In this document: in pieces, positions 10,103-11,927 of the stretch
Position numbering within the stretch: the stretch's first letter is position 1
Layout of the letters: each line of letters starts with the position of its first letter
Source of the DNA: Camelus dromedarius
Lineage: Eukaryota
NCBI RefSeq assembly: GCF_036321535.1
Contig: NC_087436.1
Span: forward strand, 32,490,001-32,554,000
Direction: 5' to 3'
DNA length: 64,000 bases
The notes under the pieces: generated by a model
What the model was told of the DNA's origin: nothing
Seen by the model: only the letters and a program-made list of their open reading frames with translations
Database searches by the model: none
Made by a program: the position numbers and the translations under genes

Positions 10103-10209
10103 GGGGTACACCTGTCGCTGTACTCATTGGCGATGGTTTCGATGCCGCCACTCCTCGCTACAGCGATGTAGCAGTTGAGAAAGCCGAGGTCAATGCCAAC
10201 CACAGACAT
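10103..10209 (-). CDS. HSPA4L: HSPA4L coding exon 1 (107 bp), heat shock 70 kDa protein 4L / APG-1 (HSP110 family)
   Basis: ATG TCT GTG GTT GGC ATT GAC CTC GGC encodes [36 protein letters not shown], the HSP110 N-terminus. Donor CC|gtaagt. Confidence 0.97.
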
Positions 10210-10297
10210 CCCGCCTGATGGTCTGGGTGACGGTACTGAAGCCTGCTGTGCGGGGACCGCGTCCTCTTCTGGACTGTTGCTCCTGGAACTGCGACTC
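10210..10297 (-). CDS. HSPA4L: Putative in-frame 5' extension of HSPA4L exon 1, used when spliced from the upstream exon
   Basis: Acceptor catctctcctttgcgtctcgtag|G at 10298/10297. The 88 nt are 1 nt plus 29 stop-free codons ([29 protein letters not shown]) in frame with the ATG at 10209. Confidence 0.6.
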
Positions 10298-10580
10298 CTA
10301 CGAGACGCAAAGGAGAGATGACCCGAAGTCGCTACGCATTAAATATAGGACAGCGCGACAGGGAACCTCGGAGGTGGAGGCCGCCAGCGCCGCAGCCCTG
10401 CCGCCCAGGTCTCTCTACTGCGGTTCGGCCGCCTCCAACCGGCAGTTACAGGGGTCTGCGCCTGCGCGCTCGGCCGCCGGGGAGGCGCGCGAGATGCTGC
10501 TCCGAGGCCGACGCAGCTCCCGGCCTCGACTTCGGCTGCTTCCGTCAGCACTCGGGCAACGGCTGCCCGAGTAGCTGCGG

Positions 10581-10600
10581 GTTCGAGAAAGATCTGGAAA
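10581..10600. promoter_or_regulatory. Heat shock element (HSF site)
   Basis: gTTCg aGAAa gATCt gGAAa: four alternating nGAAn pentamers with one mismatch, upstream of a heat-shock gene. Confidence 0.75.
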
Positions 10601-11502
10601 GTGGAGGCGGCTAAGCCAGCGGGAGTGGGAGGGAGAAGAGGGGGAGCGGGGAGGATCAGGGAGGAGAGAAGGAGGGGAAGCGGAGCTGGCTCGCTCGCCC
10701 CCGCGCGGCACCTGGGCGCAGTGCGGCGGGGCTAGGGGAGAGCAGCCGCCCGGCCCCGCGGTTTGCCCACGTGTTTGGAAGGAGCCCTTAGGGTTGTTTT
10801 GGCAACCGAGGGGCAGGCCTTCTACAGCGGCAGGACACTGCCCAGGCCTGCCGGAGTTGGCCGCGCAGGCTGGCGGGCGTTGGCCCGGAGCGGCCGCCTC
10901 GCTCTTGCCCTTCGAGGTGCCCGCCCGCAGCCCCAACACCCACCCACTGGCCTCGCCGCCCCGAGGGGCCCATGTGCCACCGGCCGGCGCGCTCGCAGTT
11001 CGGCCGCGCGGCCCTGCCGCCCGCCCGCCGCGCCCAGCTGTGTGAGGTGGCGCCCATTGTGCGGCGGGCGGCGGCCTCGCCTTGCCCCAGGGAGCGCCGC
11101 CGATTGGGGGGTGGGGAGAGCCCTTTTCTCGTAACAAGCCACAGTATCAGGCGTGAAAGATCAGTGAACACATTTTAGGGTTTTCCCTTTTCCTTACCGG
11201 GAGTTGAAACACCAAAACAACGTCATGAAACCACACACTGACTTTACCTTCATGTAACTTCGTTCACACCATTCTAAAAGGTGCAGCCTCCTCCACCAAC
11301 CCTTACCTCTGCAAACGTTTTATAGGAAAGTAACCTTACGTCTGTGTGTCCCTGTGACACCCGGCAAGCCTGTGCATTGCCTCCAGCCTCTACCCTTTGG
11401 TCCTCAGACAAGGAGCCTCCGCTGGTCCAGCTGTCTGCTTTCTTCATTTGATCAGCATCTGTCGTCTGTCTGAAATTTAAACGAGTTTTAGTTTACACTT
11501 AC

Positions 11503-11927
11503 GAAGTTTGGCTATCCTGTTCCTTCTCGTTCTCTTCTTCGTGGGTTTCCTGTTCCCTTTCGTTCACTTCTTCGTGGGTTTCCTGTTCCTTGTCGTTCAC
11601 TTCTTCGTAGATTTTCTGTTTCTTGTTCACTTTTTCGTGGGTTTCCTCTTCCCTGTCGTTCACTACTTTGTGAGTTTCTCGTACCCTGTTGTTCACTTCT
11701 TCGTGGGTTTTCTGTTTCTTCTCGCCCAGTTTCTTGTGCGTTTCCTGTTTCCTATTTGTTATCATGAAAGAGACTTTTTTACGAGGTTTTTTAGTACGCT
11801 CACTATCCTTATTTGTCCACTTCTTATAAGAGCTTAGACTTTTTACCACTATCAATGCTGCAACAGCAGCAGCAGCAAGGGTGGCTATAGCTCCTGCTGC
11901 TGTTGCTACGAGGTACATGAAATCCAT
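11503..11927 (-). CDS. Putative upstream coding exon of HSPA4L: signal-anchor helix, RVxF motif and acidic 11-aa repeats (a standalone 142-aa ORF ending at 11499 if unspliced)
   Basis: ATG in strong Kozak context (aagATGg) with an in-frame TAA upstream. Encodes MDFMYLVATAAGAIATLAAAAVAALIVVKSLSSYKK...RKKVSF...(ETHEEVNEREQ)n and ends at a phase-2 donor TC|gtaagt. Confidence 0.65.
11517..11744 (-). repeat. 33-bp tandem repeat, 7 diverged units (one is 30 bp), inside the ORF
   Basis: Recurring plus-strand ttcttcgtgggtttcctgttc / gttcac motifs with 33-nt period. Confidence 0.9.

What the first reader, a model, noticed from the sequence alone, without database searches (positions are those of the whole stretch)
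10103..11927. Upstream coding exon predicts a membrane-anchored HSP110 (HSPA4L) isoform with a 171-aa N-terminal extension
Seen in sequence: a minus-strand ORF starts at a strong-Kozak ATG (11927), runs 141 codons plus 2 nt and ends at TC|GTAAGT (11503/11502). A pyrimidine-rich acceptor at 10298/10297 is followed by 1 nt plus 29 stop-free codons that run into the HSPA4L ATG at 10209. The splice gives MDFMYLVATAAGAIATLAAAAVAALIVVK...[21 protein letters not shown]...[13 protein letters not shown] with the ATPase domain intact. Established: HSPA4L is a soluble cytosolic HSP110 nucleotide-exchange factor for HSP70, enriched in testis. Inference: an alternative promoter makes an organelle-tethered HSP110 built as anchor, PP1 motif, acidic spacer, S/P linker, chaperone. 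Phase agreement alone has a 1-in-3 chance, but the coherent architecture and open linker add support. I cannot check whether databases already annotate this isoform.
Basis: partly seen in the sequence, partly recalled or inferred. Interest (0 to 1): 0.92.

Follow-up and report, generated by a model that had tools for sequence, protein, structure and literature searches.

The report
Upstream membrane-helix exon joined to camel HSPA4L
The predicted membrane-anchored HSPA4L isoform is already in GenBank as an untested automatic camel gene model, and its upstream exon looks like a small membrane-protein reading frame shared by many mammals whose fusion to the chaperone is not conserved.

Summary
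The sequence observation holds. A 142-codon minus-strand ORF (11927-11499) ends in TC|GTAAGT. An AG at 10299-10298 leads in frame into the HSPA4L start at 10209. The isoform is not new as a prediction. The spliced 207-residue N-terminus matches EPY85540.1 (Camelus ferus HSPA4L, 971 aa) letter for letter. From Met55 it also matches RefSeq XP_010950871.2 (C. bactrianus, 957 aa), which lacks the membrane helix.

The exon belongs to an unnamed ORF family. Eighteen of 29 library hits share its start and hydrophobic helix, and seven lineages end at the same stop inside the donor. The fusion looks unconserved:
- A Myotis myotis model joins the exon about 350 nt further upstream, in a frame that, read in the window, stops before the HSPA4L ATG.
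- Several relatives carry truncated or frameshifted ORFs.
- The 88-nt linker is open in all three frames and is less conserved than the flanking non-coding DNA.
- The PP1 motif occurs in 3 of 18 sequences.

I obtained no read-level RNA evidence because the single read-laying run was lost. Most likely this is a conserved small membrane ORF in an alternative 5' exon, fused in frame in camels by phase coincidence. A real anchored HSP110 remains possible at about 0.15-0.2.

The parts
11503..11927 (-). Upstream exon, coding part: 141 codons plus 2 nt (phase 2) from the ATG at 11927.
   Evidence: It is single-copy in the window's own 2.3-Gb genome. It matches residues 1-142 of EPY85540.1 letter for letter.
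11844..11921 (-). Hydrophobic Ala-rich helix (residues 3-28), followed by a basic flank (K29, K35, K36).
   Evidence: The Kyte-Doolittle 19-residue mean is 2.43 in the window and 2.10-2.73 in all 18 sequences examined. AlphaFold2 models a helix at 3-42 with low pLDDT.
11766..11780 (-). KKVSF (residues 50-54), which fits an RVxF-type PP1 docking pattern. Met55, the start of the RefSeq model, follows directly.
   Evidence: The regex matches 3 of 18 sequences: the window, P0002 and P0003. XP_010950871.2 starts at the next codon.
11515..11753 (-). 33-nt (11-codon) tandem repeat, 7.3 copies, encoding the E/K/Q-rich tail.
   Evidence: It is stop-free in 4 of 6 frames. It is modelled as one long helix, residues 56-141, pLDDT 77-88.
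11497..11502 (-). Donor GTAAGT. Its TAA (11501-11499) is the in-frame stop of the ORF if the exon is not spliced.
   Evidence: Seven lineages end at the same ...SQTS-type terminus. The Myotis model departs from the ORF at this point.
10298..11496 (-). Remainder of the intron of the camel models. It contains the HSPA4L CpG island, an HSE-like element (10599-10582) and a TATA-like TATATT (10347).
   Evidence: GC 0.57 and CpG observed/expected 0.86. Motifs and by eye. There is no AATAAA or ATTAAA on the minus strand between the ORF end and 10000.
10298..10321 (-). Pyrimidine tract plus the AG (10299-10298) used as acceptor in the camel models.
   Evidence: 16 of 20 pyrimidines, tied for best among 92 AGs.
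10210..10297 (-). 88-nt linker, which is the 5' leader of HSPA4L read in the ATG frame.
   Evidence: Open in all three frames. Against P0045, 21 of 29 residues are identical with one codon indel, compared with 12 of 13 just upstream of the acceptor and 35 of 36 in exon 1.
10103..10209 (-). HSPA4L exon 1 coding part (36 codons, phase 2), with donor C|GTAAGT at 10102.
   Evidence: Pfam HSP70 E 3.3e-9. 100% identical to camel HSPA4L records.
152..209 (-). HSPA4L exon 2 (AG at 211-210).
   Evidence: Both upstream donors are phase 2, so a join of the upstream exon directly to exon 2 would also be in frame.
10593..10685 (-). Alternative acceptor candidates with exon starts at 10685, 10610 and 10593. 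This region is homologous to where the Myotis model resumes.
   Evidence: P0005 residues 128-189 map to 10648-10433. Starts at 10685 and 10610 are in that frame, which reaches a stop about 70 codons before the HSPA4L ATG.

Best explanation
The exon at 11927-11503 is a real, conserved sequence unit. It is a small ORF that encodes an N-terminal hydrophobic helix, a basic flank and a repeat-built charged helical tail. It ends in a conserved GTAAGT donor whose TAA is the ORF's own stop. It lies 1.3-1.7 kb upstream of the HSPA4L start codon, upstream of the HSPA4L CpG-island promoter.

It has no canonical poly(A) signal of its own before HSPA4L. It most likely works as an alternative 5' exon of the HSPA4L transcription unit that carries its own small membrane-protein ORF. 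If unspliced, the ORF ends at ...DSQTS. If spliced, it acquires a non-conserved tail.

In camels the best in-frame acceptor lies inside HSPA4L exon 1. Gene predictors that maximise the ORF therefore write a fused protein, which is already deposited as EPY85540.1 and, without the helix, as XP_010950871.2. The in-frame fusion is a lineage-specific coincidence of phase and not a conserved architecture. At most it gives a minor camel isoform.

**Shown:** the sequence features, identity with the database models, conservation of the start, helix and donor, and non-conservation of the fusion frame, tail, motif and linker.
**Inferred:** transcription from an upstream promoter, translation of the small ORF, and membrane insertion.
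For: **The model is already deposited.** The spliced translation is letter for letter the N-terminus of EPY85540.1. From residue 55 it matches XP_010950871.2.

**The exon is conserved.**
- 29 library proteins match at E<=1e-3. Eighteen of them cover the N-terminal helix, and one more is a C-terminal piece.
- M1 is invariant in the 14-row alignment.
- The hydrophobic helix is kept in 18 of 18 sequences.
- Seven lineages end at the same donor-embedded stop.

**The donor and downstream signals fit an alternative 5' exon.**
- The Myotis myotis model KAF6349113.1 leaves the ORF exactly at the donor. It resumes at sequence homologous to window 10648-10433. In the window that frame stops about 70 codons before the HSPA4L ATG; the Myotis protein aligns only as far as 10433 and then continues with unaligned sequence.
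- No AATAAA or ATTAAA lies between the ORF and HSPA4L.

**The fusion is not conserved.**
- The P0033 lineage is frameshifted after about codon 56.
- P0001 stops at 89 residues.
- P0002 and P0023 look like one ORF split in two. Both come from ENA and report the same longest contig of 3524 nt; that they share a contig is my inference.
- The linker is open in all three frames. It is less conserved (21 of 29) than the DNA just upstream of the acceptor (12 of 13).
- Three equally pyrimidine-rich acceptors fall in three different frames.

**Independence of the models.** The wild-camel genome paper describes annotation by Augustus, GenScan, homology and ESTs merged by EVidenceModeler (PMC3514880, passages read). 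That EPY85540.1 comes from that annotation is my inference.
Against: - The RefSeq model uses exactly the 11503-to-10297 junction. RefSeq's pipeline normally leans on RNA-seq (recalled, not checked), so that junction may be genuinely used in camel tissue. In that case some fused protein could be made.
- In seven lineages the frame is kept through a variable number of repeats right up to the donor. That pattern would also suit a coding exon meant to be spliced onward.
- I have no orthologous DNA, so I have no dN/dS and no check of the acceptor or phase in other species.
- The Myotis model may itself be a predictor's construct.
- The relatives come from a homology search on the helix. Lineages that lost the helix would therefore not be seen.
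- Contig ends cannot be excluded as the cause of the short forms P0001, P0002 and P0007.
- No evidence of translation of the small ORF exists here.
Confidence: 0.45

Rival explanations
1. An upstream promoter in camels produces an mRNA that starts above 11927 and is spliced 11503-to-10297. It is translated from the first ATG into an HSP110 of about 1010 aa, held on a membrane by an N-terminal signal-anchor, with the chaperone in the cytosol.
For: - The exact protein is a deposited model (EPY85540.1), and the junction is also in RefSeq XP_010950871.2.
- The ATG has a strong context with an in-frame stop 5 codons upstream.
- The helix is followed by basic residues, which would put the C-terminal part in the cytosol (positive-inside rule, recalled).
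- The acceptor ties for the best pyrimidine tract.
- The long charged helix would make a spacer.
Against: - The RefSeq model begins at Met55 and so lacks the anchor.
- The C. dromedarius record starts at the canonical Met.
- The fusion frame is not shared by the Myotis model, and the ORF is broken in several relatives.
- The linker shows no coding-type conservation.
- An out-of-frame upstream ATG at 12000 opens a 58-codon ORF that overlaps the start. It would compete if the transcript began further upstream.
- No paper on such an isoform appeared in three searches (listings only).
Confidence: 0.18
2. The RefSeq version. The transcript starts inside the ORF, between 11926 and 11766, and is spliced 11503-to-10297. 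It yields a soluble HSPA4L with a 118-aa charged N-terminal extension and no membrane helix.
For: XP_010950871.2 is exactly this protein: 957 aa, starting at the Met that follows KKVSF.
Against: - The start may only reflect incomplete 5' evidence in an automatic model.
- The extension consists of the repeat, which varies in copy number and is lost in several relatives.
- The linker is poorly conserved.
Confidence: 0.1
3. There is no protein at all. The ORF is untranslated. The region is conserved as regulatory or 5'-leader DNA of HSPA4L. The ORF stays open because the strand is T-poor and repeat-built, and all protein models are artefacts of ORF-maximising predictors.
For: - The sense strand is 14% T, and the repeat is open in 4 of 6 frames.
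- There is no Pfam match above threshold and no usable hit in the ESM Atlas.
- No named protein exists in the family apart from the label 'hypothetical protein'.
- Several lineages are truncated or frameshifted.
Against: - The start codon is invariant in 14 of 14 aligned sequences.
- Hydrophobicity of the helix is kept in 18 of 18 sequences, including relatives with as little as 39% overall identity.
- In seven lineages the frame is kept to the same terminal stop despite different repeat numbers.
Confidence: 0.2

Closest known systems
EPY85540.1, 'heat shock protein 4L isoform 1' [Camelus ferus], 971 aa (GenBank automatic model)
   Same: Its first 207 residues equal the window's spliced translation letter for letter: 11927-11503 joined to 10297-10102.
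   Different: It is a database prediction with no experimental support that I could find. It also lacks about 39 residues of a later exon compared with the 839-aa core seen in XP_010950871.2.
XP_010950871.2, 'heat shock 70 kDa protein 4L' [Camelus bactrianus], 957 aa (RefSeq model)
   Same: Same junction, same linker and same chaperone.
   Different: It starts at Met55 of the ORF, so it has no hydrophobic helix and no KKVSF.
KAF6349113.1, hypothetical protein mMyoMyo1_011669 [Myotis myotis], 222 aa
   Same: Orthologous ORF (50% identity over residues 1-128), leaving the exon at the same donor position.
   Different: It continues in sequence homologous to window 10648-10433, about 350 nt upstream of the camel acceptor. 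It uses another frame and is annotated as a separate protein not fused to HSPA4L. In the window that frame ends before the HSPA4L ATG.
Canonical cytosolic HSPA4L (for example KAB1281879.1, Camelus dromedarius, 826 aa)
   Same: Same exon 1 from the Met at 10209 (100% identity). Same HSP70-type N-terminus.
   Different: No N-terminal extension. That the canonical protein is soluble is recalled knowledge, not tested here.
Small ORFs (microproteins) carried in 5' leaders or alternative first exons
   Same: A short conserved ORF with a single hydrophobic helix, lying upstream of and on the same strand as a larger gene, with no family name.
   Different: At 95-142 codons it is long for an upstream ORF. 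Its stop sits inside a splice donor, so splicing would change its C-terminus. Translation is not shown.

Membership tests
HSP110 / HSPA4L (Hsp70 superfamily) | N-terminal Hsp70-type nucleotide-binding domain beginning at the conserved start | tested here: met
   The frame containing exon 1 matches Pfam PF00012 positions 1-34, E 3.3e-9. Exons 1 and 2 align at 100% and 95% to camel HSPA4L records.
HSP110 / HSPA4L (Hsp70 superfamily) | Orthology to HSPA4L rather than HSPA4 or HSPH1 | tested here: met
   Identical to proteins that NCBI names HSPA4L in three Camelus species. The neighbours on the same strand are an INTU gene and a mitochondrial-carrier gene. That this matches the human gene order is recalled.
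Deposited N-terminally extended camel HSPA4L models | Same exon junction and same residues | tested here: met
   207 of 207 residues equal EPY85540.1. Residues 55-207 equal the start of XP_010950871.2.
Alternative first exon of HSPA4L, expressed | RNA reads that start at the exon and cross the junction 11503-to-10297 | not testable with these tools
Nine RNA-labelled runs hold 0.54-0.79 of the sampled words of 10050-12050.
Single-pass membrane protein (N-terminal signal-anchor) | A hydrophobic stretch of about 19 or more residues near the N-terminus with a basic C-terminal flank | tested here: met
   Kyte-Doolittle 19-residue mean 2.43 in the window and 2.10-2.73 in 18 of 18 sequences, with a K/R-rich flank in the printed segments.
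Single-pass membrane protein (N-terminal signal-anchor) | Actual membrane insertion, and which membrane | not testable with these tools
   Needs fractionation or imaging. AlphaFold2 gives the helix only a low pLDDT of 52-62.
PP1-docking proteins (RVxF motif) | [RK]-x(0,1)-[VI]-{P}-[FW] present and conserved among orthologues (pattern recalled) | tested here: not met
   Present in the window as KKVSF, but found in only 3 of 18 sequences. Binding was not tested.
Protein-coding exon under purifying selection | Conserved start, frame and residue character across species; dN/dS below 1 | tested here: inconclusive
   The start is invariant in 14 of 14 sequences, and the helix is kept in 18 of 18. 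The tail is variable and broken in several lineages. No orthologous DNA was obtained, so there is no dN/dS.
Coding linker (the 88 nt upstream of the HSPA4L ATG) | Frame-specific openness and conservation above the flanking non-coding DNA | tested here: not met
   All three frames are open. 21 of 29 residues are identical plus a codon indel, against 12 of 13 just upstream of the acceptor. This is a comparison with one other species, P0045.

The most novel reading that the evidence does not exclude
Mammals carry an unannotated small membrane-protein gene immediately upstream of HSPA4L, with an Ala-rich N-terminal anchor and a repeat-built charged helix. Its stop codon sits inside a splice donor. 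In camels, splicing at that donor reads in frame into HSPA4L, creating a membrane-tethered HSP110 nucleotide-exchange factor. This would be a recent gene fusion by exon capture, possibly acting in the male germ line, where the neighbouring carrier gene and HSPA4L are expressed (expression pattern recalled).
Probability: 0.15. Interest if true: 0.75.

Novelty: already known. Interest (0 to 1): 0.33.

Why it matters
As a prediction it adds nothing new, because the same protein has been in GenBank as an automatic model. The value of this check is a warning: such models can come from an ORF-maximising join of a 5' exon to a gene's leader. Here the supposed architecture (anchor, PP1 motif, spacer, linker) is not conserved.

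The part worth keeping is the small hydrophobic-helix ORF upstream of HSPA4L. It recurs in many assemblies, and the only names it carries are 'hypothetical protein' labels: one GenBank record from a bat (P0005) and two metagenome gene calls (P0006, P0020). If it is translated, it is an unannotated mammalian membrane microprotein whose C-terminus depends on splicing. If camels really fuse it to HSP110, that would be a rare natural case of a tethered Hsp70 exchange factor.

Tried and rejected
- **Read-level test of the junction.** I therefore have no junction, start-site or strand data.
- **Run shares.** The shares (RNA-labelled runs holding 0.54-0.79 of the words of 10050-12050) are higher than the two exons alone could give, about 0.37 by my arithmetic. 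Unlaid, they cannot separate unspliced RNA, the canonical leader or DNA carry-over, so I do not use them as evidence.
- **Orthologous DNA.**
  - An alignment query was rejected for lack of a conserved stretch.
  - P0006 found nothing in metagenome contigs.
  - A 36-aa query was too short.
  - The 79-aa query returned 16 loci, all distant Hsp110 or Hsp70 genes. None had the upstream ORF, and there was no nucleotide similarity outside exon 1.
- **Family and structure searches.**
  - Pfam gave only sub-threshold hits for the ORF.
  - The ESM Atlas gave no usable hit.
  - Earlier findings of this scan gave nothing.
- **Search for long proteins with the first 60 residues.** It found none. This was misleading: EPY85540.1 is hidden in a 90% cluster whose representative starts at Met55.
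- **Repeat-only hits.** Ten of the 29 library hits (P0011, P0014, P0015, P0019, P0021, P0022, P0024, P0025, P0026, P0029) match only the charged repeat. I set them aside as low-complexity matches.
- **P0028 and P0044.** Their sequences show Ala-to-Val and Thr-to-Ile changes throughout, as C-to-T converted DNA would give. I left them out of the counts.
- **P0036.** It joins the ORF's first 42 or so residues to sequence that matches window 9117-9215 on the opposite strand. I treat it as a chimeric or rearranged contig.
- **Literature.** Six searches (listings only) gave no paper on an extended or membrane-bound HSPA4L or on a small ORF at this locus. Searches were loosely set and did not force the gene name, so they are weak.
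Full report
**What is in the sequence.** On the minus strand an ATG at 11927 opens a 142-codon frame that ends at a TAA at 11501-11499. It has A at -3 and G at +4, and an in-frame TAA lies five codons upstream. 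The TAA that ends the frame is part of a GTAAGT that begins at 11502. An exon ending at 11503 therefore carries 141 codons plus 2 nt. An AG at 10299-10298 follows a tract with 16 pyrimidines in 20. The 88 nt that follow run, as 1 nt plus 29 codons, into the ATG at 10209. That ATG opens the first exon of an Hsp70-superfamily gene (Pfam HSP70 positions 1-34, E 3.3e-9). Exon 2 lies at 209-152. Upstream on the same strand lie a mitochondrial-carrier gene (exons between about 39200 and 16400) and an INTU gene (about 55000-49000).

**How much of it exceeds chance.** Several of the supporting arguments are weak.
- The 88-nt linker is stop-free in all three frames.
- More than half of the ORF (239 of 429 nt) is a 33-nt tandem repeat with 7.3 copies.
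- That repeat is stop-free in four of six frames, and the sense strand is only 14% T.
- Of 92 AGs between donor and ATG, three tie for the best pyrimidine tract, with exon starts at 10610, 10593 and 10297. They fall in three different frames.

The in-frame fit thus stays a one-in-three event, and the openness of the tail and linker adds nothing. What does exceed chance is conservation, described below.

**The isoform is already in the databases.** I searched with the linker region for longer proteins. It returned a cluster whose members include three camel records:
- XP_010950871.2, 'heat shock 70 kDa protein 4L' of Camelus bactrianus, 957 aa.
- EPY85540.1, 'heat shock protein 4L isoform 1' of Camelus ferus, 971 aa.
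- KAB1281879.1 of C. dromedarius, 826 aa, which starts at the canonical Met.

The window's spliced translation (207 residues) is letter for letter the N-terminus of EPY85540.1. From residue 55 it is the N-terminus of XP_010950871.2. The RefSeq model shares the junction but begins at the Met just after KKVSF, so it lacks the hydrophobic helix.

The paper on the wild and domestic Bactrian camel genomes describes annotation by Augustus and GenScan, homology and dromedary ESTs, merged by EVidenceModeler (PMC3514880, passages read). That EPY85540.1 stems from that annotation is my inference.

An earlier search for long proteins with the first 60 residues found nothing. The reason is that the 90% cluster is represented by the Met55 form.

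**The exon belongs to a conserved, unnamed ORF family.**
- A full scan of 1.84 billion representatives gave 29 hits at E<=1e-3.
- Eighteen cover the N-terminal helix, one is a C-terminal piece, and ten match only the charged repeat and were set aside.
- In a 14-row alignment the start Met is invariant.
- All 18 sequences examined (the window plus 17 relatives) keep a 19-residue hydrophobic window, Kyte-Doolittle mean 2.10-2.73, followed by basic residues.
- Seven lineages end at the same ...SQTS-type terminus, which is the TAA inside the donor, despite different repeat numbers.
- The ORF is single-copy in the window's own 2.3-Gb genome.
- The only GenBank-named relative is KAF6349113.1, a 'hypothetical protein' of Myotis myotis. 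Two further relatives (P0006, P0020) carry a 'hypothetical protein' label from metagenome gene calls. The rest are unnamed ORFs on contigs.
- Pfam and the ESM Atlas gave nothing usable.
- AlphaFold2 on the alignment gives a helix at 3-42 (low confidence), a disordered stretch at 43-55 that holds KKVSF, and one long helix at 56-141 with pLDDT 77-88.

**The fusion to HSPA4L does not look conserved.**
- The Myotis protein follows the ORF to the donor position. It then continues in sequence homologous to window 10648-10433, inside the HSPA4L CpG island about 350 nt upstream of the camel acceptor. In the window that frame reaches a stop about 70 codons before the HSPA4L ATG.
- The lineage of P0033 is frameshifted after about codon 56.
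- P0001, 68% identical to the window's ORF, ends at 89 residues.
- P0002 (79% identical) ends 71 codons after the Met. P0023, probably on the same contig, carries the C-terminal part as a separate ORF. That they share a contig is inferred from equal contig lengths, and contig ends cannot be excluded for the short forms.
- The RVxF-type pattern occurs in 3 of 18 sequences.
- P0045 is a read-through ORF from another species that covers the HSPA4L leader. Against it, the linker is 21 of 29 identical with a one-codon indel. The 13 codons just upstream of the acceptor, intron in the camel model, are 12 of 13 identical. Exon 1 is 35 of 36 identical. The linker is therefore the least conserved piece, as expected of a leader and not of a coding segment. 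This rests on one species.

**Other anatomy.**
- No AATAAA or ATTAAA lies on the minus strand between the ORF and 10000. A transcript carrying the ORF would therefore have to splice or run on into HSPA4L, which fits an alternative 5' exon.
- An HSE-like element (10599-10582, by eye) and a TATA-like TATATT (10347) lie inside the 'intron' of the camel models. The acceptor at 10298 therefore sits within, or just after the start of, the canonical first exon.
- Both the upstream donor and the exon-1 donor are C|GTAAGT in phase 2. A join of the upstream exon directly to exon 2 would also be in frame, but it would delete the first 36 residues of the ATPase domain.
- An out-of-frame ATG at 12000 opens a 58-codon ORF that overlaps the start.

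**What could not be done.** Nine RNA-labelled runs hold 0.54-0.79 of the sampled words of 10050-12050. Unlaid, this does not separate spliced from unspliced RNA or from DNA. No mammalian orthologous DNA could be fetched, so there is no dN/dS. Six literature searches found no paper on an extended or membrane-bound HSPA4L or a small ORF at this locus (listings only, three of them loosely set).

**Verdict.** The sequence observation is right, and the predicted protein is an already deposited, untested automatic model.

| Reading | Probability |
|---|---|
| Conserved small membrane-helix ORF in an alternative 5' exon of the HSPA4L locus; its in-frame join to the chaperone in camels is a lineage-specific coincidence that predictors turn into a fusion | about 0.45 |
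| Genuine anchored HSP110 in camels | about 0.18 |
| RefSeq-type soluble extension from Met55 | about 0.1 |
| Untranslated conserved leader | about 0.2 |

Read-level RNA data for the junction and the 5' ends would decide between them, together with orthologous DNA from other camelids and mammals.

Noticed in passing
window 10582-10599 and 10342-10347 (minus strand): A heat-shock-element-like array (TTCnnGATnnTTCnnGAA) and a TATA-like TATATT lie upstream of the HSPA4L ATG, inside what the camel models treat as intron. The HSE region is well conserved against P0045 (23 of 27 when read as protein).
   Followed up: partly
window 10097-10103 and 11497-11503 (minus strand): The upstream-exon donor and the HSPA4L exon-1 donor are both C|GTAAGTG, phase 2, with the TAA in frame. 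A join of the upstream exon directly to exon 2 (209-152) would therefore also be in frame, but it would remove the first 36 residues of the ATPase domain.
   Followed up: partly
proteins P0028 and P0044 (relatives of the ORF): These relatives show Ala-to-Val and Thr-to-Ile changes throughout the helix and a stop where the others have Gln. That is the pattern expected from contigs assembled from C-to-T converted (bisulfite-type) reads, so they are artefactual 'proteins' in the collection.
   Followed up: no
protein P0036; window 9117-9215 (+ strand): A contig-derived ORF joins the first 42 or so residues of the family ORF to sequence that matches HSPA4L intron 1 of the window on the opposite strand (64% over 33 residues). 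It is a chimeric contig, an inversion or a shared repeat.
   Followed up: partly
window 16397-39212 (minus strand) and 38000-39400: A six-exon-hit mitochondrial-carrier gene (Pfam Mito_carr) lies here with its own CpG island (GC 0.47, CpG observed/expected 0.84). It sits between an INTU gene (Intu_longin domains at 49036-55033) and the HSPA4L locus, all on the minus strand.
   Followed up: partly
window 12248-12289 (minus strand): Two AATAAA signals lie about 330-360 nt upstream of the ORF's ATG. They could mark the end of an upstream transcript, for example a long 3' UTR of the carrier gene, which would place the small ORF's promoter within about 300 nt.
   Followed up: no
protein P0018 (317 aa) versus window 12059-10463: In one relative the ORF frame stays open from upstream of the Met, through the helix and across the whole CpG island. 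The distance is about 630 nt shorter than in the window. It is unclear whether this contig is spliced or its genome is simply shorter here.
   Followed up: no
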